From positions 105,152,001 through 105,216,000 of the forward strand of contig NC_043006.1 in the NCBI RefSeq assembly GCF_006345805.1: 64,000 nt of DNA, given 5' to 3'. The notes under the pieces are model-generated. The model saw nothing but the letters and a program-made list of their open reading frames with translations, made no database searches and was not told the origin of the DNA. Origin of the DNA: Octopus sinensis (Eukaryota). Shown one piece after another: positions 762 to 50,188 of this stretch; the first letter of the stretch is position 1; each line of letters opens with the position of its first letter. The position numbers and the translations under genes are program-made.

Positions 762-817
762 TATATGTGTGTGTGTGTGTATGTGTATATGTATATATAT
801 ATGTGTGTGCATATGTG

Positions 818-1018
818 TTTGTGTGTCTGTGTTTGTCCCCCACCATTACTAGACAAACGACGTTGGTGTGCTTACGTCCTCATAGCCTAGCGGTTCGGAA
901 AAAAGACCGATGAAGTAAGTACTTGGCTTACAAAGAATAGGTCCTGGGCTCGATTTGTTCGACTAAAGGTGGTGCTCCAGCAAAGCCGCAGTCAAATGAC
1001 TAAAACAAATAAAAGAAT
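818..1018 (+). mobile_element. SINE type A, tail half
   Basis: TGTTTGTCCCC...GGTGCTCCAGC...CAGTCAAATGACT. Confidence 0.8.
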
Positions 1019-1111: not shown

Positions 1112-1878
1112 TGTTTCTTTATTAGCCACACAGGGCTGCACACAGATAGAACAAATTACAAGGTAGAGCTTTTCTTTTGAAGGTTTAAAAAAAAAAGGAA
1201 AGGGGGGAGTTTCGATCAAAAGGGATCGTAAAAGGAGAGAAAGAGGACAAAAAAGGGGGGTTAAAAAAAGGGGGGAGAGGAAAAAAAATTGATCAATAGG
1301 GATCGTTATCACAGAAATGTCAATATGAAGTGTAAAGGGGAGGACAAGTGAGGTTTACCCGTGGAAAGAAAAGCCTACGGAAAAGACCACGGTAACCTCG
1401 GTCAATGGAGTCACATGTTATATTTCTTTTTATTTTTTTGCGAATAAGCAACTCTCTGTTTTCAATTTCTGGGTTCATAGGATCATGCTCAAGGTGGCTT
1501 CGTCATTCATACGTGCCATTCTTGCTACATTCACCCATCTTTTTTTAAAATATTCGCTAGACAAAACTTGCCTCTCTACTCTCACTTTCCTTTTCAAGTG
1601 GTACTTGAAGAAGTTGATGAGAGATTGACCAGAGAGGAAAGTGTTTGTCTCCAATCCTTTCAGACGCGTCCACCAGATACATTCTTTCGCCATAGCCACA
1701 AGGATGATGAAAATAGCTCTTCCTTCCCCTTTGAAGGAAGGAGGCGTGACAATATTGACGATAGACTCAGCTGATAAACCGACTCGTCCCACACGTGACA
1801 GCAGTTGTTCGACATAAGCCCACAGGTCGGAAATTGTTGGACACTGAACGAGTGCGTGCAGAACGGTTTCGTCGCTCT
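1112..1878 (-). mobile_element. 5'-truncated second Tx1 copy from a related subfamily (ORF2 C-terminus plus 3'UTR), in (GATA)n
   Basis: The 1475-1792 ORF (LSAESIVNIVTPPSFKGEG...WWTRLKGL...FFKYHLKR) parallels the ORF2 C-terminus. 3' end CAGCCCTGTGTGGCTAATAAAGAAACA. GATA arrays on both sides. Confidence 0.92.
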
Positions 1879-1890
1879 AGATAGATAGAT

Positions 1891-1921
<31 letters not shown>

Positions 1922-1922
1922 T

Positions 1923-1988
<66 letters not shown>

Positions 1989-1998
1989 GGATGGATAA

Positions 1999-2066
<68 letters not shown>

Positions 2067-2368
2067 TTAATTTTTTATTGTAGCCACACAGGGCTAAACA
2101 CAGAATAAAAATGGACGAAATACAATGTAGAATTTTTCTTTTCGAGGTGGGATGGGTGGGGGAAGAAAAAAAAACAAAAAAAAACGTTTGATCAATAGGG
2201 ATCTGTGGGTTGTGTGGTGTATAAAAAAGCAATATATATATATATATAAGGTTCACAGTTTAGGTGTAGTCTTGGAAAGAAAAACCTACAAAAAAGACCA
2301 AGGTCACCTCAGGCAATTCGAAAAAGAACACATGAGTAAGTCGCCTTACTTCTCGTTGTCTCTTTTGG

Positions 2369-5300
2369 TTACAGATTTAAACTTAAAATAGTGTCGTCTT
2401 TCATACTGACCATTTTTGCCACTTTTACCCACTTTTTATTAAAACATTCGTTCGACAAAGCCTTCCTCTCTATTCTCATCCTCCTTTTCAAGTGGTACTT
2501 GAAAAAGTTGACGAGAGACTGACCAGAGAGGAAGGTGTTTGTTTGCAGTCCTTTCAAACGCGTCCACCACACACATTCTTTCGCCATAGCCATCAGCGTA
2601 ACGAAAACCGTTTTCCCTTCCCGTTTAAAGGAAGGTGGTGGAACAATATTCACAATAGACTCGGCCGATAGGCGAGCCTGACCCACACGTGACAACAGCT
2701 GTTCGACGAAGAACCACAGCTCTGAAATATCTGGACACAGCACGAGTGCGTGCAGAACGGTTTCGTCGCTCTGACCGCATCTCGGTCCGGTGATGGTTTT
2801 CGAACCGTGTCTGTAGCTCTTCTCTCGAACAGGTAGTGCGTCTCGATAGCACTGCCAAGCCAGGGATTTCTGGAAGTTATCCATAGGCCCCGGCCCGAAC
2901 GTCGTCCTGAACAGGCGGGTTAGGAATTCCTCGTCGACGCCCAGGTTTGCCCCGAGTGTGTCGTCGGACCTCCCCTCCACTAGTCCTCTATAGAACGCTT
3001 TAGTCGTTTGGAAGTTGCACAAGTTTGACCCCGGTCGGCAGAGCTGCTGTAGAGCTTGGTGACACTCTCGGTGCCAATCGCCCAGTTTCGGTCTCTTTTT
3101 GATCCACGTTTGCAGTTCGGTCAGTGAGACGAGCTGCGGGAAGTCGCGCCTCACAAACGGCGCCCACACCTGTTCACCGTCGTCGATGAATTTCCAGAGA
3201 TGTCGCAGTCTCAGCGCATGCCTGCGCATCATCAACCACGGCATGCCCAGTCCTCCATTCAACGGATGTTGACAGCAAATGGACTTCCTCACCATCGGAA
3301 CGCCACCCTTCCACAGGAAGCGGAAGAGTATGCGTTCCAGTTTGGTGATGGTGGCGTCGGGACAAGGTACGACGGTCAGGCGGTAATCGATGACGGATGC
3401 GATGTACGCGTTCGCCACCTCCGCCCGGCCTTTTAGAGACAGCTTTCTCTCGGCCCATGTTTGGCTAAGAGCGACCACTCTACTCGTGATCCCGTCCCAG
3501 TTCTTATCCATTTGGAGGTCCGGACTGAACCAGACCCCGAGCAATTTAACCGGTCCGTCCGTCCAGCGTCCCACTACTGAGCCGCAGTCGGACGGCATGG
3601 GCTTGCTTCTCCAGGTGCCGAGTAGCAAACCCACTGACTTTTCCGGGTTAATCTTTGCTCCCGTCACCGTTTCATATTTTCTTAGTGTCTCGCCGACCAG
3701 CTTGATGTGCTGGTAGCTCGACACTATGACGGTGACATCGTCCGCATATGCCGACACGCTCGTCCCGCAACCCAGTTCCCGTGGGATGCCCCTCAGTGTC
3801 GCCAGCTTCCGCAGTAGCGGCTCGAGAGTCAATACATACAGAAGCGCCGACAGGGGACAACCCTGACGGACCGAACGCGTGATGTCAAACGGTTTAGACA
3901 GGTGACCGTTCACCCGAATCACCGATCGGATGCCGCTATACAAGGCAGCGATCCAACCGCGGAAGACGGGACCGAAGCCAGCCGCCCTGAGGACGGCCGC
4001 CAAGTACCGATGGTCGACCCTATCGAAGGCTTTAGACTGATCCAAATTTATCAGCGCCCCACCCATGCCAGGATCCTTAACTACCCTGTCCACAATGTAG
4101 CGCATCAGATGGAGGTTGTCATGTATGGTTCTTCCCGGCACGGTGCATGTTTGCGCCCTGTCGACCAGTTTACCAATGACAAGCGCCAACCTCTCGGCTA
4201 TTACTTTGGCCAAAATTGTCAAATCTGCGTTGAGCAGAGTGATGGGCCTGAAATTATCTATAAAATTCCCCTTGTTTGAGTCTTTCTTCAGCAACGTCAC
4301 TGCACCTCGGCTCACGAAACCGGGGATTCTCCCGTTTTGTTGCCAGTTGCAGTAGACTGATGCCAAGAGGTCGCCAAACAAGTCTGGCATTCGACAATTC
4401 AGCTCGTAGGGTAAACCATCCAATCCAGGTGACTATCCCTCGCGCAGCCCGCCATCGCATCCCACACGTCAGCGGCTGTGATGGGACTTTCACAACACTC
4501 CGCTTCTCTTGCCGAGAGCCGCGGCAGGTCGGTCATGTAGGCACTGAAATCCATCCCTAGTTCCGACCCACCACTCGCACCAAACAGTCGAGCAAAGTGC
4601 TGTTGAAAGGCCTCACACATCCTTTCGGGTTCGAGTAAATTGCATCCCTGTTGATCTATTAGAGACCGAATGGTTGATCTGTTGCCACGCTGCGCCTCCG
4701 CTACCCGGGCCTCTCGCGCAGCTTCAATCCCTTCGTTCCTTAAGGCACGCATTTTAGCTCTGACGACGCAACCTTCGTGCTTGGCGTTGAGGTGTTGGTC
4801 GAGGGCCATCCTCGCAGCCAGCACGTTGGTTGCGCTGCCAGTGGTAAGTGCCTCTTCTAGTTTCTTAACTAAGTCTCCCTCTACTCTATTTCGTTCTATC
4901 GCTAATTCCTTGCTAAACCTAATTGATTCCGATTTTATTGCCATTTTCAGGGCGTACCACCAGCGGTTGTTAACGACCGCTCCTGTCAGCGCCCTCTTAA
5001 TTAACTCGCTAATCCGGTTCCTGTAAACCTGTCGCGCTAACAGCGACGTGTTCAGTTTCCAGTAACCGGGACCCTGCCTATGTGTTTTATCTAAGTCGAG
5101 CGTACACGTAACAAATTTGTGATCTGTGTAGCTGACTATTTTAAATTGTGGACATCCTACACTATCCCTATCCGCTGTCCTGCATAGAATTCTATCTAGA
5201 TAAGATCTCGACGATCCGACGCGGTTTGTCCAAGTCCACGTTGGCACATTCGGATGGTCGAGTCGGAACCTGTCAGACAAATGGAAACGTCTGAGCAGGT

Positions 5301-5808
5301 CTTTGAGGCTCTTACACCCCCTTCTATTCCTATCCCTTCCCACATAATCTAGATGCGTGTCCAAGGTAGCGTTCCAATCCCCTACTAACAGTAAAGGTTT
5401 AGACGTACCCAGGAAAACCTCTAGACGTCTGAAGAAATCCGCCCGACCCGTTAAGGACGGTGCATAAACTGCCATCAGACGGAATGCACACCCATTTCTG
5501 CCATCCACGTCCAAGACAACCAGCCTACCCTCCGGGTCTAGGAATATTGCTCTTACTTTTACTTTTAGACTCTTTCGAAAAAGCACTGCAGTACCTCCAC
5601 CACCCATGTTCGGCAGACAGGGAGAAAAATAAATGTCAAATTGATTGCCAAACATGGACTCGAGGGCCCGCGGCTTACTGAGTCTGGTTTCGCTGATAGC
5701 TACTATATCCACGTCCAGTGACTTGATGTCGTTTAGAAGGTAACCTTGCTTCCAAGCCGACGCCAAGCCACGCGCAGTCACACAACCTAATTTAAGCATA
5801 CTTGACAT
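2369..5808 (-). CDS. Tx1-like ORF2p: apurinic-like endonuclease, reverse transcriptase and C-terminal zinc finger, split by a single-base deletion near 4434
   Basis: APE motifs: ISET, VYAP, GDWNA, SYLDRIL, TDH. RT motifs: NFRPITLLNAD, DQSKAFDRV, VRQGCPLS, YADD, INPEKS. C-terminus PRCGQSDETVLHALVLCP. Adding one A (GATAGTCA to GATAAGTCA) restores the canonical KSPGLDGLPYE and fuses the 469-aa and 684-aa ORFs. Confidence 0.95.
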
Positions 5809-5873
5809 TTACGAAAATTGTGTTTTACACACTATATTAGCAGAGACAAGAGGCAAGAAGTGAGGTCACTTAC

Positions 5874-7753
5874 TCATTTTAAAAGTTTCATTTTTTCTTC
5901 TTCTTCTTTTGTATCGTTTTTGATGAGGTGTTTGTATAGTTTTTTCGAGTGGTATCGTTGATACCCGCCTACCGCATTCGGAAATAATGTTTTCAGTATG
6001 TGGTGTTGTGCTTGTGTTATGTGTAAAATTCTGATGTGTTTCGGTGGTGTGGTGTGCGGATGATTGTTTGTCTTAAAGTCATCTTCACAGACGACCATGT
6101 TAGATTTGATGTAGTCCATTAATTCTTTATTGTCTGTGTCTATTGCAGTTAGTTGTGTGTGTGGTTTTACGGGTTCATTACTTTTTTGATTGTCTAGGGG
6201 GATGTTGTCCTGAGTTAGATATCTCCCTGCTTTAATTCCTTGTTTGGTGGATTTTTTGGATCTTTTTCTTTTACCCCCTGTGGCTATTTGCCATTCCGTC
6301 GAACTTTCGTCGCCCGACGTATCAGTATGGGGTAGAGGCAAAACATTTGCATTACTATGTATGCTTGTATAAATTGTTGATGTTTTGTGCGGTGTTTGTG
6401 TTGTTGTGGTGTTAGGGGTAGCATTTGTCTTCTCGTCAGTGTTTTCTGTCTTTTTAATTGTCGTCCTGGGTGTGGGCGTGGGTCTATTTTTTGTTAATTC
6501 AACAGGTTTAATTGGTTGTGAAGTCAACGGTGATTGTGTTGGTACTGTTTTTCTTGGTGATGTTGTTGGGGTTTGTTTGCTGGTTTGTTGTTTTTCTTGG
6601 CGTTGTTCCATAATTGAGTGTGTTGGTGTTGGTGTTGGCAACAAAGGGATTTTATTTGTTTTCTGAATTGTTCTTTCTTGTTTTTTCTGTACCAGATCGC
6701 ACTTGGCAATCAAATGTTCGGGGCTGCCACATTTGTAGCATCTAGGCTTTTTGCCTTCTGCCATAACATATAGGCATTGCCCATTCTCCAAGTATATCTT
6801 GTCGGGTAGGCTCTCGATAGAGGCCCCCTCAATCTGGATGGTCACTACTACTGTTTTTCCACCCCAATTGACGTTTAGGTACACGGCTGTTTCTAGAATA
6901 TTGATCTTTTTCAAGTGGTAACAGATTGCCCCTGTTATCCATTTGTTCGGCATATCGGGGGGTACATTTCTGATAGTAATTCTACTCACCCTCTGGTTTT
7001 TATAATAAGGGACCATGATGATTTCATCATTTCCCAGAGACTCAGTAGAGTGAGCTTTTGCCACTTCCTGGTTAGGGAAGCGGACCACTACTGTGTTAAA
7101 CTGGGGACCCCAGTTTATATACTCTTTTTCTTTCATTATGTTTTTTAAACATTTCTCCACATCAGTTTTTGTAATCTGTTCATTTGGTTTTTTGTTTTTT
7201 CTAATAATTTTATATACAATTGTCTTATTTTCTATTTCTTGTTTTATATGTTGAGGTGTATGCAGGACTAAATCTTGTCCACGGGTTGTAAAGAGAGCTC
7301 TTGTTTCTATGAGTTCTTCATTTGTGAATGTAACAATCTCCTTTTTCTGGCGAAGAATATCTGCGAAATTTACGGTTGTTGACTTTTTGTATTGGCATCT
7401 TCACTATTAGATAGTTCATTTTTATTGTTGTTCTTGTTGTTGCTGTTGTTTTTGTCAATAGTTTTCGTTTCAGTTTTATTTTTATCATTTATGTTGGTCG
7501 TGGTAGTGGTGGTGGTGGTGGTGGAGGTGGTGGTGGTAGCAGTTGTTGTCTCGTGGTTGCTGTTGTTAGTGGTGGTGGTGGTGGCGGTGGTGACAGGGCT
7601 GTTAACGCACGTGGTTGCAGCGTTCCTTTCACCGAATTTTACGTTGGCATTTTCCGTGCGAACGTTCTTTTTTTTCTCTGTCGTTTCCAGACTAGGAAAA
7701 TGTTGTTCCAAAAAAGAACGCGACCAGCGTTCAACAATAACATTTCTAGACAT
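5874..7753 (-). CDS. Tx1-like ORF1p (nucleic-acid chaperone, CCHC zinc knuckle), about 625 aa, split by one frameshift near 7385
   Basis: Knuckle CYKCGSPEHLIAKC and an RITIRNVPPD segment in the 5874-7160 ORF. I translated that frame further upstream and it stays open to about 7400 (KSTTVNFADILRQKKEIVTF...). It overlaps the 7370-7753 ATG ORF at an A5 run (7384-7388). Confidence 0.85.
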
Positions 7754-7953
7754 TTTCTAATGTCGAGAAGAAAATAACAGAAATGAAATGGGGTCGAAAC
7801 TGCCCCTAGGGGCGAATTCCTCCCTTGGAAAAGCACTCAAATGAAAGTTGGTTGCCTTACACACCTTATTTGCAAAAATCTACACAAACATTGGCCTATA
7901 AATAGTCAAAATAAATGATTACCTTCGGAGCTGAAACGACATCACATCCGTCA

Positions 7954-9605: not shown

Positions 9606-12600
9606 ATATATATAAGTAACAAGTTTAAAATAATGGTTATTCCATATAATTCCTTTATTAGAGCGAACTTGGCTTGCAGCTGTTTCCAGTACTCATAATA
9701 GTTATATTATTAACAGTTTTACTCAGCTGGACTATTGATCAAGTGAGGTAAATTGAACGGCCTACAAAAATTAATGCTACTTTCGTAAGTCAGAGCCATT
9801 TCTGGAAGTAACAAGCACAGGGCATGAGATTTCTTGGAGTTTTTCACTAATCTAAGTAATATTGTTAGGCTAGTCTGCCAAGAGAAAGCTTATGAAATAT
9901 TTTTCCCAGATTGAAAAGTGGGGCGATTTCAGTTTGTGTATCTATTTTAGTGTGTTAGAATGTACGATTGTTATACTTTAAAGTTTTTATTTTTAAGTAG
10001 AATATATATTTAGTTTTCTTCAAACCCTTTTTAAAAAGTCTTGCAACAACAAAGTTTCCCAATAGACCGATGTTTCTATACCTTTATACTCGTATGTATT
10101 TTAGTTTGGTTAATTTAGAGACAAAGCAGATCACAGACACCCCTGCTAATATCACCATAAATGCCACCAAGTAAACCAATAATGGAAACAGGTGGTGCAT
10201 ACCAATAATACCGAAGCGATATCACCAACAGCAAAGCCAAACTATAAGATGAACTGTTCTACTACCACCAACACGCATTTACGTCAATATTCTATGACAA
10301 GATGTACTCATCTGGTGGTAAATCGCAGTTAGTGGATGTGAACAAGAACAACGAAGGCGATATCTTCAGATGGCACGTTAATTGTTCCAAGATCGGAGCT
10401 GTATGACCAGATTTCTAAAGGCGACTATGAGAGTTCTTGGGAATTCCGTTCTTTCATCTACTGGAAGAGACGAATTATATTGTGATGCACACTCTGTGTG
10501 TGTGTGCGTCTGTGTGTAGTTACCCGATAATCTATGGTGTTTAAAAGAATCAAAAATGTACTCATAATCAACTGTCTGGCGAATAAGGAATGTATTTCCC
10601 GAATGTGCTATTGCTTACATGAACAACCAGTGACGGGTCACCTAGATTGTATTTTAGTAATATATGTGATAAGTTAGCCGATACATATAGAGTAGGGTGT
10701 CCACTATTTTACATAGTCTGTAATGGGGTACGGAAATTTATGATTTGCAAATCAGTCTAAGAAAAATCCGTTGATTAGGGAATCCATTAGTCTAGAATGA
10801 ATGGTTTAGCAAAATAGTTGAACGGTAGTTGATAGGAATGATCTTCAGCAATTTAGTGAAGCGCTTTCTCAGATTTCTGTTTGTACATTTTTCAGTCAAT
10901 TACTAAGAGAACAAGAGGAATAAACACTTGCTTCACACCGATCAAAAAACTTATGCAGTGAGTATTATAAGGATCCTTGCATTCTATACAGGATTCACAG
11001 AAGTAAGGTGAAAATGCGCATGATCTCGTGAAGGTTCTAAGTGTTGACATAGCTAAACCTCGAAGTCTTTTCCGGAAGAATTTTAACTGCAGTCTATAAA
11101 AAATTCCGAACACTGTGGTTTGGCTGTGTTACCAAGGCTGGAGCATTTCCAGTTCCAGATAATCTCTGCTGACCACAGAAACCAGAGTAAACTCCAAATA
11201 TTGCTGACCCTGCCCGATCAGCATAAATGCAAATCGTTGAGACCTGTCTCCAGGTACTCCTTCATTTTCCAAGGACTGACGACAGCTGAAGCTATGTCGA
11301 ACAGGTATTCTCAGTGTAGAACGGTTCTGTTTACCTGCAGATGGTGTCATTATGATTATGACACCATCTTTTAGTGAGAAGAGACATGCAGTTTCCGTCT
11401 GTCAAAGGGATATTGTGTTAGAGGTTCTATTGTGCAATATATGTAAAGGATTAGAAACCTACACACTTATTTTCATCTAAGAATTCGTCAACATTTTCAT
11501 TGAATATGAGAGGAAATGCAAGATACTATATTCTAGTAATTTTTTGCTGAAATATAGGGCAGACTGGCGGACCACTAAACTGAATGTGTCTAGGTTTAGC
11601 GTGTTGTGAAAGCCCGTGGCTTTGTGTTTAGGGTGTTTTTTTCACAGTCGCAATGTCGTGCGTATGATTCCTGGACCGAGGCAACGCACTATGCCTTTGA
11701 GCAAGGCACTTTATTTCACAGTGATCCAGTTTACTATACTGAAGATGATACTAGTAGAGTGATAATGTAGATCTCTATCCTGTTAACTGTCACACCCTGG
11801 ATGAACCGTTACGTCGAAATTTAAGAGAAATGGGTGAGTATCTATGTCTGTCCGTGACTTTATGGATATCTAAAACAAATAGCGAGAACCATACTCATTT
11901 ACTGGTGATGACTGGCTTTAAAAACTTAGCTTGTTAATTGTTTATACCCCCGAGTGTATGTTTTCAGAATATATTTTTTCTTTACTATTCTTTTCTATAT
12001 TTGTTTTCATATTTAAATCTATGTAAGCCATAACTTAATCCGTCGACCATATTAACACCACCGCCTCTCATCTTGGAAAGCTTTAACGTTGTCCATTCTT
12101 TTGCAAGAATTCGGGTCAGGTCTCCAGTGGTTTGAGATAAATATCCAAACCAGACATGAAGGCCCTGGATAATGTTCATAAATATTGAATTTCCCATTGG
12201 CTGACGAAAAGATTTGAAAATAACAACATACATCATATATGTAGTGTGTTACCAATATAATGGAGAAAATTCACATTTCCAACGAGATTTCAAGAAAAAA
12301 AAACGAAAAACTACGAAATAACTATTGTATTTGATGATATTTTCTGCATTATTTAATATATGGATAGCAGGATGTAGGTGGAGGATCATAATAGAAAATA
12401 TCAACAAAGATGTGACAAAAATATAATACATCTAGATATTCGAAACTAAATGCTGAAGTTAACAGAAAATATAATCTATAAAATGTTATTATAAAATTTA
12501 TACAACGATTAACTTGGAATACATTTTAATCATCTCTTTTCGTTTTCTTATAACAGTTAATTTAACATTAATATATTAAAGAATGTTTCCAATTCTATTG

Positions 12601-13860: not shown

Positions 13861-14950
13861 CCTTCTTTTAATGCACTTCAAGATTAGAAAAATGTTTTGG
13901 TATTTCCCGTCAGTCAAGTCACTGTAAGGAACATTTTCAGCTATCATATACAATCCATTTGTGCTTACATGTCAAAATGTACACAAAGAATAGTTTATAT
14001 TTGTTGAGCCAAAAAGGCTCAGAGCATTCTCGCCCAGGAAAATATTATAAAACTTTTTGTTTAGCTTGTGTCGCAACTAAATAATTCTCACTGAATTTCA
14101 TATTGTCTAATACTCAGTAACCAGGCCTTCTGAAAACTTTGTATTTGTTTTATGGGCGGTGGGAGCGCTTCAGCAATATCCTTCTATTTGTTACCGGGCA
14201 CAAGGTCGTTTTTAAGACTCTGGTCTTTACAAAATGCTTGTAACCAATGTTGTATGATATGGTCATTGACGGTCACCTGACTAAATGCTTCGTTGATTTT
14301 TAATGCAATTATTACTGCTTTATCTTATACTTTGAACTCATTCGATAAAAATCAGTCGAATCAAAGTTTTCTTGTTTAAACTTGACAGCCTTAAATGAAA
14401 CAAAGAATACAAGGAAAAGATCTTTGGGTGGTTATTATGCCAACAACACACAGGCACTCGTTTCATTTCACATCTTATTAGTGTTAGTTTACTAGTAAGT
14501 CATTTGATCAATTCAGTGCTCGAATAATCAGCTTGACTCATCAGATTCCTTTCGCAGGGATTCACAATTTCATGAATCGCATCCTCTCTCTAATCCAACC
14601 AACTTCAACATACGATTTCAGATCAAGAATCTTAACTTCCAATTCAAATATAAAATCTATATTATTACCATAAATAAATAACAAAATTTGCGCTTGAATT
14701 TGGAATAAATTATGAAAAGATAAATAAATTTATTCTACAATAAGTATTAAAAAATTTAATATAAACCCTCAGTTAGTTCTGAACAAACCTAGTATACATA
14801 CATATATTCATACATACATACATGCTTGCATAAGTACATACATACAGACAGACAGATAGACAGACAGCTTTGGAAAAGAAGTACAGTCTTGTAGAATTAT
14901 TCTTTTGACGATATGGTTTAAATAATATTGATATTATGTCATATTTTCGT

Positions 14951-16021
14951 AGGCGGTGACCGACAGTAACGTTAGCACACCGGGCAAAATACCCGGATGC
15001 ATTTAGTCCACTTTTAGGTTCTGAGTTCAAAATTCGCGGAGGTCAGAATTTGCTTTCCATCTTTACGGGACGATAGAATAAGTACCCGTTGATCATTGGG
15101 GTTAATGTAAGCGAGTTACTCCTTCCCCCGAAATTGCTGGCCTTGTACTAAAATTTGAGATCGATATTTTGACGCGACTACCTCCCCAGAACCAGCATTC
15201 CTACACTCTTCATCAGTATTATGGTAATGAAGTAACATATTATTCAAAATCCGCCGAGGTCGACTTGGCCGTTCATCCTTCCGGTGTCGATAGATTAAGT
15301 ACCAGTTGCATACTGGGGTCGAGCTAATCGACTGGCCCCCTCCCCAAAAATTTCGGGCCCTGTGCCTAGAATAGAAAAGAAAGAACTAACATATCTCTTT
15401 CTCGACGGTTTTATACGAGAAAAATTTTCGAATATCACTTTTATTTCTTACTATTAGCAATCGGATAGAAACGTTAGAAAAAATGCTTAGTGGCGATTCT
15501 TCCGACTTTACTTTTTGAGCTCAAGTTTCACCGAGGCTACCTTTAATTTTCATCCTTTCGGTGTCGATCAAATAAGTATCAATAAGGCACTTGAGTCGAT
15601 ATAATCGATTAGTCCCCACACCAGAAATTCCAGACATTATTTCTATAATAAACATGATTATTTGTAAAATGGAATATATACTTCGAGGATATGTTATAAC
15701 CTTAACAAACGTCTAACACCAGATTATGTAACTCGTGACATATCGCTTACATTAAAATGAAGTTGATAGATATAGGCATTTAAAATGTAATATATTTGCT
15801 AGATTTAAGGCGGTGAGCTGGCAGAATTTTTAGCACACCTGGTAAGATACTTAACGATATTTCGCCCGTTTTCATATTCTAGGTTCAAATACTTCCCGGG
15901 GTCGACTTTGCTTTTCTTTATGTGGAGATCGATAAAATAAGTACCAGTTGAGCACAGGAGTCATTTTAATCGTCTTACCCCTTACCTGAACTCGCTAGCC
16001 TTGTGCCAAAATTCGAAACCA
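14951..16021 (+). repeat. Cluster of about four type B SINE copies (alternative tail ...CCTTGTGCCAAAATTTGAAACC)
   Basis: Copies at about 14951-15160, 15245-15380, 15465-15650 and 15808-16021. Confidence 0.8.
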
Positions 16022-16205
16022 ACATAATTGTTAGATTTTGATATCAAATTAATTGCATTTCCTTTTCCTCTTTAATTAATGTTCATGATTCACTGGGCAA
16101 AAGAAAATAAATTGTACAACATCAACATGTAATTTCTGTGAAACACCATGAAATTTAAAGTTTTGGAAACAATCACAGGTAGGCAAACAGCTATATTATA
16201 ATATC

Positions 16206-16437
16206 TGTTTCTTTATTACTCACAAGGGGCTAAACACAGAGGGGACAAACAAGGACAGACAAACGTATTAAGTCGATCACATTGACCTCATTGCGTAAGT
16301 GGTACTTAATTTATCGACCTCGAAAGGATGAAAGGCAAAATCGACCTCGGCGGAATTTGAACTCAGAATGTAGCAACGGGCGAAATACCGCAAAGCACTT
16401 CCCCCGGCGTGCTAATGTCTCTGCCAGCTCGCCTCAC
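16206..16437 (-). mobile_element. tRNA-derived SINE type B (Meta-domain-like centre) with Tx1-like tail and 22-bp target site duplication
   Basis: Head GAGCTGGCAGA..GTTAGCACGCC..GAGTTCAAATTCC, centre GCCTTTCATCCTTTCGAGGTCGATAAATTAAGTACC. TSD CAAACAGCTATATTATAATATC at 16184-16205 and 16440-16461. Confidence 0.9.
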
Positions 16438-17321
16438 CTCAAACAGCTATATTATAATATCGAAGGATTAAGTGGCAATCTTGTATTAGAGGCTATCTGA
16501 TGACTCCCTAGTAAATTTACTTAACATTAAATAAACCAACAATTTTAAATTGTGTTACGGTATGATAGAAAATTTTCCGTTCTTTACTATATGGATATTG
16601 AATCATTGATACATTTTTTTTTTTGTTAGCTTCTAGCATTAAGTGATAATATGATCATGGACGTGCTGAGATCAGCAGTAATCCTAATCAATCCGAAATT
16701 TTATGAAACGATTCGTAAATATATTATCTCTAATGTTAACCTGCCAACCCAAATCCGTTAGGTAACATCATGAATTTGGAAATATCAGCAGAGTGATTGG
16801 TGAAGGAACTAAAGACCGTTAATGTATGTTAAAGAGAGAAATAAGTTAAAGGATATTGGTAAGATAGGAAATGCTGAGAAAGAACTTTTATTATGAAAAG
16901 AATCTTTATTATAAAGAACAAGCGGTGCTGATCTTCCTTTTCATTTCTCGATAGAAATTTCCCCGAACTATTGTCGGGAAATAACTGAATTGATTAAATT
17001 CTTTTAGAAAAACGTAAATTAGGTCTAAAACACGCGAAATACTGAGATCATTCAAATTTGAATACAACAGTTGCATTAAAACTGAAAACTAAGTGCATGA
17101 CCCAACATAATAATGTTTAGAGCCGAAGCAGTACATCTGTTATCTATGTGTATGTATGTATGTATGCATGTATGTATGTATGTATGCATATGTATACATA
17201 CAAACATACATACATACATAAATACATATATATATATATATGTGTGCGTGTGTACATATATTTTTTCTTTAATGATTCAGCTCAGAGCTGCGGCCATGCT
17301 GATGCACCGCCGTTATATATA

Positions 17322-17785: not shown

Positions 17786-18178
17786 TTTTACTTATCTCAG
17801 TCACTTGACAGTGGCCATGCTGGAACACCTCATTTTGGTCGAAGAAATCGACTCCTGGAATTATTCTTTCTGAGCCTGGTGCTTATTCACACGGCCTCTT
17901 ATACCGAACAGCTAAGTTACAGAGACGTAGACACACCAACATCGGTGGCCAAGCGATCGTGGGAGAGGACAATCACAGACATAAACACACAAACATAAAT
18001 ATATACATATATATATGACGGGCTTCTTTCAGTTTCCGTCTACCAAATCCACTCACAAGGCTTTGGTTAGCCTCGGGCAATAATAGAAGACACTTGCCCA
18101 AGATGCCACGCAGCGGGACTGAACCCAGAACCATGTGGTTGGGAAGCAAGCATTTTACCACACAGCCACGCCTGCGTC
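17786..18178 (-). mobile_element. SINE type A, full copy
   Basis: Reverse complement of the type A head and tail. Confidence 0.85.
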
Positions 18179-18668
18179 TATTTATATATATCTACATATA
18201 TATGTGTATGTATGTATGAGGCCTTTCGCGATTGCTTTAAAGCTAGGAATTGTGCAACAACCCCATGTATAGACTCATAAAGCGCAGTGTGATTGACGCC
18301 TTAACCAAGTTTGCTCCGTAAGCACTATGCATTTGAGTTTGTATATTGTAAGAAAACCTGGGGAATAGAAATTGTAAAGATGACCGTAAAATTCTTTGTA
18401 GCTGTAACACAAAATGTGCAGCTTGTCACACACCGTGTGATGATGGATCTGCCTGAGAATTGCATTAAGAGTATTTGTGTCCATGGATTGCTCCGATTGT
18501 TACCTATTAATACATAAACAGGGTATTTAGGCGATTGAACAAGTGTAACCTCATGATGGAATGAGGAAGGCCATCCGCGCCTCTCTTTTCTCTCTCTCTC
18601 TCTCTATCTATCTTTCTCTGTATATACATCTGTATTTGCAGGTGTATAAACGTATGCTTGTAATGTAG

Positions 18669-24011: not shown

Positions 24012-24210
24012 ATATTATTTTGTGTCTGGTGAGAGTCATTTTCTTTTCGTGCCTTATAATGTAACACACGAGTCAAGACTATTGAAAAGGTTGCAAGACG
24101 CAACGAAAATTTTAGGAAAATAAAAATAAGGAATAAAATTTTACCGGTGAGCGTGTTACATTACAGGGCACAAAGAGAAAATGACTCTCCCCTGACACAA
24201 CAGAATAATC
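24012..24210. repeat. Imperfect inverted repeat with arms of about 55-60 bp
   Basis: ATTATTTTGTGTCTGGTGAGAGTCATTTTC..TAATGTAACAC versus GTGTTACATTAC..AAAATGACTCTCCCCTGACACAACAGAATAAT. Confidence 0.75.
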
Positions 24211-33224: not shown

Positions 33225-33660
33225 AATGCAATTTTAATCTTCGGAACCTTATTACCGAGATCGTCTTTGCTTTTCATCTTTTTGGGATCGATAAAATAAC
33301 TACCAGTTGAGCACTGCGGTCGATGTAATAAACTTCATCCACCAAACTTGTACACTAAGGTCGATATAATCGACTACCCCAAATTTCAGACATTGTGCCT
33401 ATATCTAAAGCAATTTCTTTTTTTTTTTTTTACTTTGGTGGAATTAAGACGGCGAGCTTGCAGAATCGTTAGCAAGCCGGGCAAAAATGCCTAGTGGTAT
33501 TTCGTATGTCTTTACTTCAGAGTTGAAACACTGACAGTGTTGACTTTGCCTTTCATCCGTTCGGAGTCGATAAAATAAGTATCAGTTGATCACTGGGGTT
33601 GATCTAATAGACTTAACCCCTCTCCAGAAATTACTGTTCTTGTGCCAGAATTTCAAAGCA
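33225..33660 (+). repeat. Two type B SINE copies (one partial, one complete)
   Basis: GGCGAGCTTGCAGAATCGTTAGC head at about 33450. TTTCATC..GTCGATAAAATAA centre occurs twice. Confidence 0.8.
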
Positions 33661-33987
33661 ATAGTTTCTGTGGAATTTATTTAAAACTATTTCATGGTAT
33701 TGAAATTTCTTTAAAGTACGATATACTACTTAGTTAGACTTCTACTAACCTGCAATTTGGAATCAGCGATTCTATGTAAGATATGAGTTATTCAAAAGTA
33801 TTTTGTATGAAAAGTAAAAAACAAAAAAAAAATGGTAAACGAATTTTTTTCCTTTCGGCATAACTGCAAAATAACTTGAATCTGTTTTTTTTATATATTG
33901 AATCTTGCAACGAATTTTAGGTTTGTTTTATTTTATTGAACTATCGATCAGCTGTGCACTCTCTGTTGTCAATATAAATATATGTAT

Positions 33988-35292: not shown

Positions 35293-35508
35293 CTTTTATC
35301 GTTTGCTTGTTTCAGTCATTAGACTGCGACCATCCTGGGGCACAGCCTTGAATACTTTTAGTCGAATGAATCGATCCCAGTACTTACTTTTTAAAGCCTG
35401 ATTCTTATTCTGTCGGTCTATTTTGCCGAACCGCTAAGTTACTGGGACGTAAACACACTAACATCGCTTGTCAAGCGGTAATAGGGAGACAAACACAGAC
35501 ACAAAGAC
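35293..35508 (-). mobile_element. SINE type A, tail half
   Basis: Reverse complement of the type A tail. Confidence 0.8.
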
Positions 35509-35509
35509 A

Positions 35510-38558: not shown

Positions 38559-38679
38559 GTGCTGGTGGTACTTGTCTTGAGGAAGAAAGTGTCATAATGA
38601 ACAGGATCGCCAGCCAGATGTGCCACTTGGTCAACTACAACAGTCATGATAGCTTGCAAATTAAGACGCATCAACAAAA

Positions 38680-38897
38680 GGCGGCGAGCTGGCAGAAGCG
38701 TTAGCACGCCGGGCGAAATGCTTAGCGGTATTTCGTCTGCCGTTACGTTCTGAGTTCAAATTCCGCCGAGGTCGACATTGCCTTTCGTCCTTTCGGTTGG
38801 AAAAATTACGCACTGGGGTCGATGTAATCGACTTAATCCCTTTGTCTGTCCTTGTTTGTCCCCTCTATGTTTAGCCCCTTGTGGGTAATAAGGAAAT
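38680..38897 (+). mobile_element. SINE type B with Tx1-like tail
   Basis: Same head and centre as 16206-16437. Tail TCTATGTTTAGCCCCTTGTGGGTAATAAGGAAA. Flanking direct repeat CATCAACAA (38669-38677 and 38904-38912). Confidence 0.9.
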
Positions 38898-38929
38898 ACG
38901 ATACATCAACAACATCCATTGTTAATAAT

Positions 38930-40270
38930 GGTTTCAAATTTTTAGCACGATGCCATAAAGTTTCAGGGAGGTGGCGAGTAGATTACATCGACCCCAGATT
39001 TCAAATAGTAATTATTTTATCTACTCAGAAGGGTAAAAGGCAAAGTTAACATCAGCAGAATTTGAACTGCGAAACTAAAGGCGAATGGAATGCCACGAAG
39101 CATTTCGACCTGCGTGCTAACGAATCTGTCAGCTCGCCACCTTCAAGAATGACATTAATAGTTCTTTCTAATAAAGCAGAAGGGCTGAAATTTCGTGGGG
39201 AAGGGCTAATCGATTATATCGACCTCAGTCTTCACCTGGTAATTATTTTCTCAACTCCGAAAGGATGAACGGCGCATTTGACGTCGGCGGAATTTGAACT
39301 CAGAATGTAAAGGTGAACGAAATTCCGCCAAGCATTTTGTCCGCCGTGCTAATGATTCTGCCAGCTCACCACCTTCAGAAGAATATTAATAAAGAACCAG
39401 CAATTATGCGATTGGTTTGAATCGATTATATCAATTCCAGTACTTAACTTATTTTGTCGATATCGAAAGAATGAAACGCAAAGTCAACTGCAGCGCGATT
39501 TGAGCTCAGAACACAATGAAATGCCAATAAGCATTCTGTACGAAGTGGTAACGATTCTAACAGCTCGCTATCTCGAGTAAAATATTGGTTTCAAATTTTG
39601 GCACAAAGCCAGCAATTTCATGAGGGTTGGGTAAGTCGATTACATCAACCCCATCGTTCAACTGGTACTTATTTTAACTACCTTCAGAATACGAAAGGCG
39701 ATGTCGACCACGACGTTATTTGAACTCAAAACATAAAGATGAATGAAATGTCGCTAAGTATTTTGCCTGGCGTGCTAACGATTCTGCCATCGAGCAAACT
39801 TAAGCAGAATAGTCATAATCCTTCTACTATAGACACAAAAAATCAGGATGGGGTGAGACAGCGAGTCGATTACATCGATCTTAGGACTAAACTGATACTT
39901 ATTTTGTTGACCCTGAAAGGATGAAAGGCAAAATCGATCTCAGTGGAATTGGAACTCAGAACTTAAAGACGGACGAAATACCGCTAAGCATTTTGTCCGG
40001 CGTATTAACTAATCTGCTAGCTCACCGTCTATATTAGATTACTGATAATGGTAATATTGTTTCTAATTTACATATAAGGGCAGCAATTTTGAGAAAAGAA
40101 TGAAAGTCGATATCATCGACTCCAATTATTCACCTCTATTTATATTATCTCCGAAGGAGGGATGAAAGACAAAGTTGGCCTCGGTGCGATTTGAACCCAG
40201 AATGTTAAGAGCCGGAAGAAATTTCGCAAAGCATTTGTTCCGACTCTGATAATTCTGCAAGTTCGCTTCG
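38930..40270 (-). repeat. Head-to-tail array of about six diverged type B SINEs (alternative tail)
   Basis: Recurring unit of roughly 200-240 bp containing ATTTGAACTCAGAA, GAAAGGCAAAGTCGA and GTGCTAACGATTCTGCCAGCTC variants. Confidence 0.85.
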
Positions 40271-40912: not shown

Positions 40913-42797
40913 CCGTGTATTCGCTTGAAATACATATATTGCGTGCAGAAGCGAGCTGCAATCATCTCTTGCAGACGAGTTGTGCAGTACTGAGGAGTGG
41001 CAGAAATAGCCCAAAACCAGGACTGGTCTACTGGTCCCGTCGCTAGGAGATGGTAGGGGCTCGCTCCCGTGCTCACAATTTTATCGGACCCGGCTATGAA
41101 TTGGTAACCAGCCTGAGGAGATGTCCTCCCGGGTTTAAAAAATCGCAGTAGAGTCGGCACGAACTGACAGCCATCTTAAAGTGGCTACGAATATTACTTG
41201 TCAGCACAACTGCTGCGTTGATCTCTTAGAGGCCTTTTAGAACAAGCATTTTTGCTTATTATAACGATTCTAAATTATAATAGTCCCCTTTTTTCTATTG
41301 TAATTTGATTACCACCCCAATTTTTCCATTATTTCTCAAGGCCTTTAATACGGTAATGAATCTGAGTAAATTCAGCTTCCTCTATCTTACTTCTTCTCAC
41401 TATCATCCCCTCCCCATCACTCCCTCCATTATTACCACCCTATGCTTTGCCCATTTTGCGAAGATTGAGCCGACATATTGTCCCATCACTTTTGATAACT
41501 TACTAGGCCGGCCTGGCGTTAATTGCTTCTCTCACCACTGACCAGTACGCATAAACAACTTTCTTGAGATAAAAATCTAGACCAAAGGTTCTCAACAGGG
41601 GGAAATTTGGATTCGGGGTGGGAGCATTTTGGAGAAAAGAGACACTAGAAAGCAATTTCTCTTTGGCGAGTTAAATTCGAAATTAACGAGTAGTAGCCAT
41701 GTTTCCACATCTGCGACGGTCAGTTTAAAGAAAACTATGCCTTTTTGTTTCAAATTTTCAATAACTTAAAAAACACTTTTTCCACTTTGACGACACCAAG
41801 CAAATTCTTGGTACTATGTGTAAATGGTAAAACCCCCAAAACAAAAACAAAAACTAAAACCTGATGAATAGTGACAGACGATTAAAAGAGAAAAAAGTAA
41901 TGAATAAAAGCGAAAAGCTGAATGTGTGTGTGTGATTGTGTGGTGTGTGTGTGTGTGTGTGTCAAATAAAAGGCCTTGGCCATTACAGCGCAGTACCAGT
42001 GCCATCGCAGATGACTCCAAAAGGCAGAGATGGAACTGATACCACAAGAAGTGTTACCCAACACTTTCATAAATCCGGCATTCCACCGATCAAAAATGGT
42101 ACTTTCTATTATCGACTCCAGAAGGAAGGATGAAAGTCAAAAATTTCCCTCAGCGGAAATTGAACTCAAAACGTACAACATTCTACATTATTTCCTGTAA
42201 ATAGGACTCTTAGAACGATTCATGAATGAGTGGAATATATTTTGGTTTGTGAGCCTTCTTTTGATAACTTTTAATGCTTTCTTCATGTGTAGAAAACTCC
42301 ACCTGACCACATCAAGCCTCGAAAATAAATACATATCGAGAGTGACTATTTTTATTGCTGTTCATTAAATATACACTTTTTATGGTATTTTCTTTATTTA
42401 TTTTCATTGTCTATAAAGTATACATTCCATTTATTTATTACAGCCTTAAAAGAACAACAACCTCAACACATTCGTTGTATGTGAACACAATACTATATGA
42501 GGAGTAACTTATCAGCGCATCTATTACTCTCTTCTGGCCGTCTCAATCCTCTCTCTATCTACATGTCTCTCCTCTCTCTTTCCTGTCTCTCTTCTCTCTC
42601 ACCCTCTTTCTTTCTCTCTCTCATAAACATAAATATGTACCACAACAATACACAGCAATATTAATAAATATGGATGCGTATGTATATATGCGTAAACATG
42701 CACACACATACATAACTATATATGAATACATAAATATATACGTAAATATAATATACATTCACATACTTATGTCTTCATATATATGTAATATATATAT

Positions 42798-43175
42798 GGC
42801 GCAGGAGTGGCTGTGTGGTAAGTAGCTTGTTTACCAGCCACATGGTTCCGAGTTCAGTCCCACTGCGTGGCACCTTGGGCAAGTGTCTTCTACTATAGCC
42901 TCGGGCCGACCAAAGCCTTGTGAGTGGATTTGGTAGACGGAAACTGAAAGAAGCCCGTCGTACATATGTATATATATATATGCGTGTGTGTGTTTGTGTG
43001 AGTGTGTTTGTCCCCCTAGCATTGCTTGACAACGGATGCTGGTGTGTTTATGTCCCCGTTACTTAGCGGTTCGGGCTTACAAAAGAAAAGTCCCGAGGTC
43101 GAGTTGCTAGATTAAAGGCGGTGCTCCAGCATGGCCGCAGTCAAATGACTGAAACAAGTAAAAGAGTAAAAGAGA
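42798..43175 (+). mobile_element. tRNA-derived SINE type A: tRNA-like head, CORE-like segment, central TA/TG microsatellite, structured tail
   Basis: A-box-like TGGCTGTGTGG, B-box-like GAGTTCAGTCCC, CCTTGGGCAAG segment, tail GCAGTCAAATGACTGAAACAAGTAAAAGAG. Near-identical copies elsewhere in the window. Confidence 0.9.
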
Positions 43176-45019: not shown

Positions 45020-46925
45020 TAGCAGCGTTACGGTCTGAACCATTTCCTTTGTCGACGTACTTCCTCAGCAGCGTTACCACACCTCGGCTAATAGCACTAG
45101 GAATTCTCCGGTTCTTTTGCTAGTTACATCAAAGTTCTTCCAAGGGACCGCTAAACCAATCTGGCGCGAACTGATAGAATTCATAGGGCAAATCATCCAA
45201 TCTGAGCAGTTTGCAACTTGAGCATTTCGGTCATTACTTCTTGTATTTCAGTGGCCGTTATTGGCCTTTCCCAGAACCTTGTGTTCGATGTCAAAACCCG
45301 CGGTTGGCCGTGCGCGTACGAACTAAAGTCCACTGCCGTCATCGACCAATCACCTTCCTCAAGCAGCTGCACGAAGTAATAGGGGAAAGACGTATGTCTG
45401 TTTGGAACCGAGCCGCACATACCCGTTCTGTTCCTTCAAAGACCTAATCATGGTTATGCTGCCATATCAATTTGGACCATTTGGATCCATTGGACAGCTT
45501 TCGTACCCTCGTGTTTGAGCAACGTGCCTTAGCCCTAACACTGCCGCCTCCCTGTTTCACCTCGAAAAAATGGCCAAGGGTCATTCTCGCCCCAACCACA
45601 TCGGTTGTGATACCTTTACTCGCCTCTAGGACATCGATCGTTAGGCAACTGGTTCTCCCTCTAATTCATTTCTTGCTATTGTCAGCTCTTTGCTAAACGC
45701 TATCGATTCTTCTCTAATCGTCCCCTTCAGGAAGATCCACTATTGGTTGTTAACGATCGGCACCGTCAACTGCTATTTAACTAACTAGTTTACTAATTCG
45801 GTCCCTGTAGCTTTTTGCGGGCCAGTAAGAATGCATTCAACTCCCATTAACTGGGACTACGACTACGAGTTCTATCTAAAGCGAGTTTGGGGTCTGTGTA
45901 GCCGACCAATTTAAGTTGAGGACCAAGCTATTCCAATCCGATGGCCTTACAGATACAATATCTAGATGCGATCTGTATGACCCGTTATGTTTGCTCCATA
46001 TCAGGGAAATCAGTCGATACCAGTCAGATAACTAGAAGTTTCGGAACAAATTTTCGAGGCTTTTTCATCCCCTTCTATGCATTAGCCTCACACAGACATT
46101 CCGTGCGTCCAAAATACAGTACCAGGTCCCCACTAGTACTAAAGAGCGAAACATTCCCAGGAATGTTTAGAGACGCCTGAAGAAATCTGGCTTTCCTACC
46201 CCAGTCGAGTTATATATGGCCATCAGTCTAAAGCCGCCACCTTCGCTGCCATTCACGTCTTGTACCACCAAACTATCGTTCGGGTTCAAGAATACTGTCC
46301 GTACTCTGAGACCTAAGAATTTCCGGACAGCATTGATACACCACCACTATTTAAGAAATTTCAAAGTCGTTGAATATGGGTGCTAGTGTGTGCACACTAG
46401 AAATACTTGTCTGGCTGATGGCTGTCACATCTAATTCGAGCGACCTGACATCGATGATAAAATGAGCTTACTTTCAAGCTGATCTCATGCCACGCACATT
46501 CACGCACCCCTATCTCAGCGCAGTCATGCTAGTTGGAGAAAGAAAAATAGGTCACACATCTTGATTTACTAGAAGCCGGGATGTTCCGGGCCTCTTTACC
46601 GGCGAAATTTTTTCTAAGAGGCCCTTCTAAATTCTTATGATCTATTGTTATCTTAAAAAAAACTTCCAATGCTAGCCAATAATATTTCCCGGATGTTTTA
46701 TGAATTCAGATGCTTCATCAGTAGTCTGTCTTTCGTGGATTTGAGGATGAAATCTTCAAATTCCTTCCCATCTGTCTCGATTTTGCTTTCGTTCTGATTT
46801 CAATAATCCACCAATTTACTTTTGGTTTTATGCAGAACAGTAAAACTTTTGGATACATTTTGTGGACAGTTTGAAATATTTTGTTACTTTGCAGTTTCAT
46901 TATTTATTGTTTCTGTGTTTCTCTT

Positions 46926-49359: not shown

Positions 49360-49768
49360 GCAGGAGTGGTTGTGTGGTAAGTAGCTTGTTTACCGACCAC
49401 ATGGTTCCGGGTTCAGTCCCACTGCGTAGCACCTTGGGCAAGTGTCTTCTACTATAGCCTCGGGCCGACCAAAGCCTTGTGAATGGATTTGGTAGACGGA
49501 AACTGAAAGAAGCCCATCATGTGTGTGTGTATATATATATAATGTATGTATGTGTATGTGTTTGTGTGTCTGTGTTTGTCCCCCTAGCATCTTTGACAAC
49601 CGATGCTGGTTGTGTTTATGTCCCCGTTACTTAGCGTTTCGGCAAGAGACCGATAGAATAAGTACTGGGCTTACAAAAGAATAAGTCCCGGGGTCGAGTT
49701 GCTCGATTAAAGGCGGTGCTCCAGCATGGCCGCAGTTAAATGACTGAAACAAGTAAAAGAGTAAAAGA
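49360..49768 (+). mobile_element. SINE type A, full copy
   Basis: High identity to 42798-43175 across head and tail. Confidence 0.9.
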
Positions 49769-50076: not shown

Positions 50077-50188
50077 TAGTATATTATATATATTATATAT
50101 ATATATATATAATATATATAGGGAGCGGTGAATAAATTGTCGTCTAAATTACGCAAAGCTGAAAATAACACTGACGTATATATATATA

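What the first reader, a model, noticed from the sequence alone, without database searches (positions are those of the whole stretch)
16184..16461. SINE tail matches the Tx1 LINE 3' end: candidate Tx1-dependent SINE-LINE partnership
Seen: the SINE's last 35 nt (TCTGTGTTTAGCCCCTTGTGAGTAATAAAGAAACA, 16206-16240 minus) align without gaps at 29/35 positions to the end of the truncated LINE (TCTGTGTGCAGCCCTGTGTGGCTAATAAAGAAACA, 1112-1146). Its first 14 nt are identical to the full LINE's TCTGTGTTTAGCCC (2091-2104). The copy has a perfect 22-bp TSD, and the 38680-38897 copy has the same tail. Known: SINEs borrow the 3' tails of the LINEs that mobilise them, usually L2, CR1 or RTE. L1-clade partners normally share only poly(A), and Tx1-tailed SINEs are uncommon. 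Inference: stringent 3'-end recognition by a Tx1 RT mobilises an abundant tRNA/Meta-like SINE. These SINE copies are not in GATA, so the actual partner may be a less specific sister family.
Basis: partly seen in the sequence, partly recalled or inferred. Interest (0 to 1): 0.8.

Follow-up and report, generated by a model that had tools for sequence, protein, structure and literature searches.

The report
LINE targets the SINE it mobilises
A very abundant short jumping element (SINE) in this octopus-like genome ends in a tail shared with Tx1-like long jumping elements (LINEs), and one such LINE family inserts almost only into this SINE, so that family likely both copies the SINE and uses it as its landing site.

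Summary
In detail: 29/35 tail match, exact 22-bp TSD, same tail at 38680. It survives at family level: in 800 kb of unbiased genome all 65 tail-like sites are this SINE or Tx1-like LINEs, none in the control; about 85,000 exact SINE tails exist. The window's (TATC)n-targeting LINEs are probably not the main partner: 0 of 41 SINE TSDs start TATC, 34 start [GT]RTA. A sister family outside the window (E, 5.35 kb, intact ORFs) has the SINE's hairpin register and inserts into the SINE itself at position 50: 89 of 100 listed tails, 10 of 10 full-length copies with the SINE head upstream, exact TSDs 13-17 bp. 28% of exact SINE tails are followed by that same site. E's sister G targets a second SINE (17 of 20). 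Mobilisation itself is inferred. Against: E is small and younger than most SINE copies, family D matches more tail letters, and arrays lack doubled heads. No Tx1-tailed SINE or SINE-targeting partner LINE turned up in ten paper searches; Repbase was not searchable.

The parts
16206..16439 (-). SINE copy of the finding (family about 233 nt, tRNA-like head, body, Tx1-derived tail, no poly(A))
16184..16205 (.). 3' copy of the 22-bp target site duplication; starts GATAT in the SINE's sense, the motif class of SINE and off-target E insertions
16440..16461 (.). 5' copy of the 22-bp target site duplication
16206..16265 (-). About 60-nt tail shared with Tx1-like LINE 3' UTRs: terminal stem-loop (E, D, B, A, F) and upstream GT/C-rich block (G, D)
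16374..16389 (-). SINE position about 50-65: the site at which LINE family E inserts in other copies and at which tandem SINE units join; 3' strand of a predicted hairpin between the A- and B-box-like motifs. Empty in this copy.
16352..16426 (-). Pol III type-2 promoter-like head: A-box-like 16426-16416, B-box-like 16364-16352 (motifs recalled; ARAGORN and Rfam give no tRNA call)
   Evidence: sequence; negative
38679..38899 (+). Second SINE copy with the same tail
1112..1876 (-). 5'-truncated Tx1-like LINE, family B, in (TATC)n
2069..7950 (-). Full-length Tx1-like LINE, family A, in (TATC)n; ORF1 5874-7400, ORF2 split by a frameshift into endonuclease (4399-5808) and RT (2369-4432) frames

Best explanation
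The SINE carries a roughly 60-nt tail shared with Tx1-like LINEs and is likely copied by the ORF2 protein of the E lineage, a LINE family that inserts into the SINE itself at position 50. Shown: tail similarity, the same predicted stem-loop in E and the SINE, E's target, matching TSD lengths, and a SINE target motif that is the start of E's target. Inferred steps: (1) an older SINE with the same head and body swapped its tail for the 3' UTR end of an ancestor of E/G, probably by template switch; (2) ORF2p recognises the tail stem-loop and primes reverse transcription at an endonuclease nick; (3) the endonuclease prefers the SINE's position-50 site and, more loosely, Y|[GT]RTAT sites; (4) SINE RNA has no T4 terminator, so it would read a few bases into its flank, and pairing of that 3' end with the target would bias each subfamily towards its master's flank (GGTA, TATA, GATA, AGAA); (5) insertion into another SINE with homology-guided 5' joining, or copying of read-through multimers, would give the head+(body)n arrays. 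The SINE thus supplies tens of thousands of landing sites for the LINE on which it would depend. Most SINE copies would have been made by older members of the lineage, not by the young copies sampled.
For: E 3' ends: 31 of 31 fetched lie at the SINE site (28 by script, 3 by eye; 27 were picked with a query overlapping the flank by 5 nt). Flank-blind pattern: 157 hits, 89 of the 100 listed within 2 mismatches of the site (counted by eye). 10 of 10 full-length copies have the SINE head directly upstream, about 5.35 kb from the tail; exact TSDs 16, 16, 17, 13 bp and 15 bp for a truncated copy; a C/G variant agrees at both ends of each, and flanks are 83-91% like the SINE majority while E copies are 98-99% alike, so flanks are independent targets. 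SINE TSDs: n=41, 8-22 bp, median 14; 34 of 41 start [GT]RTA against 3.5% background (binomial 5e-43), 11 GGTA, 0 TATC. The two off-target E copies fetched start GATAT and GGTAT. 23,552 of 85,406 exact SINE tails are followed by GGTATTTYGTC. E tail and SINE tail fold to the same structure, 4-bp stem with 5-nt loop; A, B, D use a shifted stem with 6-nt loop. E matches the GGC subtype 29/33. The two common SINE variants inside the stems keep pairing (T-A/T-G, G-T/G-C). G, sister of E (SH-aLRT 98), shares a 28/31 block with the SINE just upstream. 10 of 12 SINE bodies matched in the window have another tail, marking the swap point. One older E-like copy (78% aa) has a tail matching the main SINE subtype 24/25 about 206 nt after its ORF2 hit (coordinates only).
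Against: No activity was tested. Family D matches more letters of the tail than E (39/45 versus 31/45 ungapped; 28/33 versus 27/33 against the SINE majority). E is small (157 exact tails) and its best copies are 98-99% alike, while SINE copies have median 92% identity to the majority (n=53); the age match rests on older relatives (64-92% aa hits; family F about 80% nt) whose targets I could not fetch. An E-anchored pattern with the SINE loop gave only 1 hit. About 72% of exact SINE tails are not followed by the E site, and 15 of 41 TSDs start TATA, closer to D's TAT. 0 of 32 headed copies followed by position 50 have a second head upstream, so arrays are not plain nested insertions. The tail folds are weak (z from +0.9 to -1.8; the finding's own copy breaks the stem). 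Only 41 of 153 headed copies gave an exact TSD, and the 316 tails were partly from targeted loci.
Confidence: 0.65

Rival explanations
1. The (TATC)n-targeting lineage of the window (A, B and above all the older family D) is the main partner; the SINE's other targets come from RNA 3' pairing and relaxed cutting.
For: D has the longest ungapped tail match (39/45), ends in the same letters as one SINE subtype, is abundant, has copies about 90% alike, often lies outside the microsatellite at TAT-starting sites with exact 9-16 bp TSDs, and 15 of 41 SINE TSDs start TATA.
Against: 0 of 41 SINE TSDs start TATC, position 4 is A in 39 of 41, while D prefers C; the hairpin register differs; it does not explain the GGTA class or the position-50 junctions. 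It may still have made the TATA class.
Confidence: 0.17
2. The tail is a relic of a one-time capture; the SINE is moved by relaxed recognition or by a LINE of another clade, and E merely evolved to cut an abundant repeat.
For: G targets a second SINE whose tail it does not obviously share, so targeting a SINE does not need partnership; Tx1 families are known to target other transposons (PMC4494074). Other LINE clades were not catalogued.
Against: The SINE has no poly(A); its TSD length and target motif match E; no non-Tx1 element had the tail in 800 kb or among 30 of 377 loci picked for non-SINE upstream letters.
Confidence: 0.1
3. An unsampled Tx1-like family (for example F or another older relative) with its own target is the partner, and the self-targeting loop with E is secondary.
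For: F has the SINE-type loop and is older (about 80% between copies); the SINE tail looks like a mosaic of G, D and E features.
Against: The SINE's commonest junction is exactly E's site; the one F copy held is not in a SINE and its end is degenerate.
Confidence: 0.08

Closest known systems
SINEU / Tx1-Mar of crocodilians (Kojima 2015, PMC4494074; parts 1-4 of 5 read)
   Same: SINE assigned to a Tx1 partner by shared target; tandem SINE insertions at the target; Tx1 families that target another transposon.
   Different: SINEU has snRNA heads and poly(A) tails and no LINE sharing its 3' end was found; the common target is a third element (Mariner-N4_AMi). Here the SINE has a Tx1-like tail and the target is the SINE itself.
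Stringent SINE-LINE tail pairs (UnaSINE/UnaL2, MIR/L2, Bov-tA/Bov-B, DeuSINE/CR1; Ohshima 2013, PMC3747384, passages and Table 1 read)
   Same: Short shared 3' end with a stem-loop; tail exchange on a conserved head and body.
   Different: Table 1 lists no Tx1 partner and no mollusc; none is described there as targeting its SINE.
L1-clade stringent pairs ZmSINE2/3 with LINE1-1_ZM and SINEX-3_CR with L1-1_CR (same paper)
   Same: L1-group LINE sharing a structured 3' end with a SINE.
   Different: Plants and algae, ends in A or T repeats, no target specificity described.
Target-specific Tx1 families: Tx1L into Tx1D, Keno into U2, Kibi/Koshi into microsatellites (as summarised in PMC4494074)
   Same: APE-RT LINEs with one repeat as target; families A, B, D here are the microsatellite type, (TATC)n.
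   Different: E and G target the heads of two SINE families; I found no such case in the papers searched.
Octopus SINEs OK, OR1, OR2 (Ohshima and Okada 1994; not held) and 'tRNA-Deu'/'tRNA-Core' classes (PMC8967140, passages)
   Same: Abundant tRNA-headed octopus SINEs; this family may be one of them.
   Different: Identity could not be tested; no partner LINE is named in the passages seen.

Membership tests
Tx1 clade LINE (families A-G) | Two ORFs; ORF2 with APE endonuclease, RT and C-terminal zinc motif; ORF1 with zinc knuckle | tested here: met
   Pfam PF03372, PF00078, PF13966, PF00098 in E; PF03372, PF00078 in A
Tx1 clade LINE (families A-G) | RT closer to Tx1 than to mammalian L1 | tested here: met
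   phmmer bits: E 335 to Xenopus TX1 ORF2 versus 221 to human ORF2p; A 217 versus 127
Tx1 clade LINE (families A-G) | Nested within named Tx1 families in an RT tree | tested here: inconclusive
   Quick tree: the families form one group with an Argonauta protein, but its place relative to the Xenopus TX1 group is open and no L1 reference was in the tree
Tx1 clade LINE (families A-G) | Target specificity for a repeat, with TSDs | tested here: met
   A, B, D in (TATC)n; E in the SINE; G in a second SINE
tRNA-derived SINE | Short, non-coding, high copy, TSD-flanked | tested here: met
   233 nt, 85,406 exact tails, TSD median 14 bp
tRNA-derived SINE | tRNA-derived head with A and B boxes | tested here: inconclusive
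   Box-like motifs by eye (recalled consensus), spaced wider than in tRNA by a hairpin; ARAGORN 0 genes, Rfam no tRNA hit
tRNA-derived SINE | Pol III transcription | not testable with these tools
   No run on record as RNA
MetaSINE or DeuSINE superfamily | Meta (66 bp) or Deu/Nin central domain | tested here: inconclusive
   No match to short body motifs in the supplements held; one file in each paper not searchable; Deu/Nin likeness is recalled only
Stringent SINE-LINE pair | Shared 3' terminal sequence at family level | tested here: met
Stringent SINE-LINE pair | Conserved stem-loop in the tail | tested here: inconclusive
   Same predicted fold in E and SINE, variants keep pairing, but no fold beats shuffles clearly
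Stringent SINE-LINE pair | Shared insertion signature (TSD length, target motif) | tested here: met
   Met for E, not for the (TATC)n families
Stringent SINE-LINE pair | Tail required for trans-mobilisation | not testable with these tools
   needs a retrotransposition assay

The most novel reading that the evidence does not exclude
A closed SINE-LINE loop: a Tx1-like LINE recognises the SINE's borrowed tail and copies it, while its endonuclease has specialised on a hairpin junction inside that same SINE, so each SINE copy made is a new safe landing site for the LINE. A sister LINE has done the same with a second SINE family, and SINE subfamilies carry a 'memory' of their master's flank in the RNA 3' end that steers target choice. 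This would be the engine of one of the largest SINE expansions in octopus genomes.
Probability: 0.5. Interest if true: 0.82.

Novelty: new variant of a known kind. Interest (0 to 1): 0.7.

Why it matters
It would add Tx1 to the LINE groups that move SINEs through a shared structured tail, which bears on whether stringent 3' recognition is ancestral in the L1 group (posed in PMC3747384). It would name a partner for a major octopus SINE (SINEs are put at 11.6% of the O. vulgaris genome in PMC13282606). A LINE that targets its own parasite turns a one-way dependence into a feedback. Closely related intact ORF2s with three different targets ((TATC)n, SINE 1, SINE 2) give a natural series for separating endonuclease specificity from RNA-DNA pairing in target choice, of use for site-specific retrotransposon tools.

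Tried and rejected
Two scans for the exact SINE hairpin without SINE upstream letters (377 and 1,018 hits) gave SINE variants and truncations: no RT hit among the 30 loci of the first or, apart from one unrelated fragment, of the second; they missed E because E has G where the pattern fixed A. Rfam and ARAGORN gave nothing for the head. Folding energies of the tails are not significant; three lower-stem pairs were entered one base off and are ignored. A first count of 41/45 for family D was wrong; 39/45 is right. Sequencing runs: no RNA holder listed; laying four guessed-RNA runs says nothing on expression. Plain nested insertion as the origin of arrays was rejected (0 of 32 doubled heads); recent DNA duplication explains few neighbours (5 of 58 pairs at least 97% alike, 30 of 58 differ at diagnostic sites). 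The careful tree did not finish; the quick tree is used. Three papers were not held. Three look-ups of earlier findings were empty. Tails and targets of older E and F copies could not be fetched.

Full report
Setting. The window is G000:C10:105152001-105216000 of a 2.72-Gb genome. I infer an octopod host because the closest named homologue of the LINE ORF2 is an Argonauta hians protein (58% identity); I did not try to identify the assembly.

Observation. All stated facts check out: 29/35 ungapped identity, the shared 14-mer, the exact 22-bp TSD and the second copy. Thirty loci each of the SINE, LINE A (full, 2069-7950) and LINE B (truncated, 1112-1876) show that these tails are family traits. 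A third, older family D has a longer match, 39 of 45 nt. In 80 evenly placed 10-kb stretches all 65 sites within 14 mismatches of the D tail are the SINE or Tx1-like LINE ends, and the reversed control has none below 17. Exact patterns give 80,634 shared tails and 85,406 SINE-type tails, with 0 control hits.

The LINEs. ORF2 has APE endonuclease, RT and zinc motifs, ORF1 a zinc knuckle. They score higher against Xenopus TX1 ORF2 than against human L1 ORF2p (217 versus 127 bits for A, 335 versus 221 for E). A quick RT tree puts A, B, D in one clade (100), E with G, and all with the Argonauta protein; placement among named Tx1 families is open. I call them Tx1-like.

Targets do not fit the window's LINEs. 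A and B sit in (TATC)n; D does so about half the time and otherwise at TA(T)-starting sites, with exact TSDs of 9-16 bp where both ends were held. Of 316 SINE tails in all loci then held, 153 had a head in place and 41 gave an exact TSD of at least 8 bp (112 dropped): 8-22 bp, median 14. 34 of 41 start [GT]RTA (background 3.5%), position 5 is T in 28, the preceding base is a pyrimidine in 29, and none starts TATC. Target class tracks subtype: GGT starts in 12 of 25 AAT-ending copies and 0 of 16 others (Fisher p 0.001).

Family E. A divergent LINE found beside a SINE hit (L228, about 50% aa to A at the C terminus) has a tail with the SINE's hairpin. Its best 40 copies are 98-99% alike. All 31 distinct 3' ends fetched run into SINE position 49-50 (most were picked with a query that overlapped the flank by 5 nt). 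A pattern blind to the flank, apart from excluding G at its last place, gave 157 hits; 89 of the 100 listed are followed by the site within 2 mismatches (by eye). Of the other 11 I fetched 5: three are SINE copies with an E-type loop, two are truncated E copies with TSDs starting GATAT and GGTAT. Ten of 10 copies extended upstream are full length (5.35 kb) with the SINE head directly before them; exact TSDs were 16, 16, 17 and 13 bp in four, the others broken by mismatches. Two of the ten have both ORFs open (520 and 1134 aa), and 12 of 150 listed protein hits lie in a 1134-aa open frame. L461 shows the whole arrangement: SINE head, TSD, LINE, TSD, SINE body, further SINE unit. Contigs of two other public runs (X18, X20, coded as another organism) bridge the SINE-head/E junction, and four further runs cover the element. 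The site is the start of the 3' strand of a predicted 13-bp hairpin in the SINE head.

The SINE uses the same site. 23,552 of 85,406 exact tails (28%) are followed by GGTATTTYGTC. These are head+(body)n arrays. Neighbouring units are mostly not recent duplicates (median 91% alike, 5 of 58 at least 97%, 30 of 58 differ at four diagnostic sites). But none of 32 headed copies followed by the site has a second head upstream, and 5 of 26 arrays have an exact TSD around the whole array. So plain nesting of a full-length copy is excluded; I infer homology-guided 5' joining to the host's own sequence, or copying of read-through multimers (the SINE majority has no T4 run).

Tail anatomy. E and the SINE fold alike (4-bp stem, 5-nt loop on a bulged lower stem); A, B, D shift the stem by one base. 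E matches the last 33 nt of the four SINE subtypes at 29, 28, 27 and 26, D at 26, 27, 28 and 27, so raw identity does not separate them; hairpin register and target do. Family G, sister of E, shares 28 of 31 nt with the block just upstream of the hairpin, so about 60 nt of the SINE trace to Tx1-like 3' UTRs, likely from an E/G ancestor. That block is low in complexity and a similar one lies inside the second SINE, which weakens this point. Older relatives in the window share head and body but have another tail (10 of 12 matches), consistent with a tail swap.

Family G. 17 of 20 G 3' ends run into the head of a second SINE family, and the one full-length copy held has that head upstream and a 15-bp TSD with one mismatch. 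Two sister LINEs thus each target a SINE head. G's terminal hairpin differs from our SINE's, and I saw no clear G tail on the second SINE, so targeting alone does not prove partnership.

Weak points. Mobilisation is untested. E is small and its sampled copies are younger than most SINE copies (median 92% to majority, range 78-98, n=53). Older relatives exist, one with a tail matching the main SINE subtype 24/25, but a stricter pattern found only 1 hit and I could not fetch them. D may account for the TATA class. Other LINE clades were not catalogued genome-wide.

Literature. Ten searches found no Tx1-tailed SINE and no LINE targeting the SINE it moves. Kojima 2015 (PMC4494074; parts 1-4 of 5 read) assigns SINEU to Tx1-Mar by a shared third-party target and found no shared 3' end. 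Ohshima 2013 (PMC3747384; passages and tables) lists no Tx1 pair. Kojima 2018 (PMC5786205; passages) has no occurrence of 'Tx1'. Octopus repeat papers (PMC13282606, PMC8967140; passages, one supplement search) only count L1-Tx1 and SINE classes. Passages of PMC4758252, PMC4824008 and PMC5753468 were also seen; one supplement file each of the first two could not be searched and may hold domain sequences. Most subscription papers, Repbase and Dfam were out of reach, so the families may already be catalogued.

Verdict. Real; a Tx1-dependent SINE is very likely (about 0.85); the SINE-targeting E lineage as main partner about 0.65. New variant of a known kind; interest 0.7.

Noticed in passing
window 18017-18204 and 17787-17991 (-), 42792-43170 (+), 49360-49760 (+), 50177-50364 (-), 814-1013 (+), 35299-35509 (-), 62790-62925 (+): A second abundant SINE family: tRNA-like head, (TA)/(TG) spacer, second module. 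Its head is the target of LINE family G. Its middle has a 21/24 match to the GT/C block of the first SINE's tail.
   Followed up: partly
L259:4600-10000 with L462; L468-L487: Tx1-like family G, copies 88-95% alike, inserted in the second SINE's head; in L259 that SINE is itself nested in a head of the first SINE.
   Followed up: partly
window 51077-51200 (-): A short unclassified stretch ending in a SINE/E-type hairpin tail followed by (TA)n, with no SINE body; possibly another non-autonomous user of the tail.
   Followed up: no
window 14941-16025, 33252-33667, 38924-40270, 53570-53780: Clusters of older SINE relatives (70-85% alike) with the same head and body but a different tail, some head-to-tail with about 230-nt period.
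   Followed up: partly
window 45033-46518 (-) and 10569-10748 (+): Degenerate fragments of further Tx1/L1-like endonuclease-RT elements (34-52% aa to family A).
   Followed up: no
window 1112-7950: Families A and B inserted side by side in one (TATC)n tract; such stacks of different families, including bare 3' UTR ends, recur in L044, L062, L123, L146, L148.
   Followed up: partly
L029:1045-2153: A SINE copy inserted inside the RT region of another Tx1-like LINE, with a 14-bp TSD starting GGT.
   Followed up: no
L016, L112, L116, L426 and others: A second self-junction at SINE position 17 (AGAAAC), mostly after the GGC subtype (6 of 56 tails), matching that subtype's AGAA-starting TSDs; no LINE with this target was found.
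   Followed up: partly
L274:2600-3980 (-): Older family F (about 70% nt to E, copies about 80% alike) with the SINE-type loop; target unknown.
   Followed up: partly
window 49893-50076 (also 24013-24207): Inverted-repeat elements of about 185-195 bp, MITE-like.
   Followed up: no
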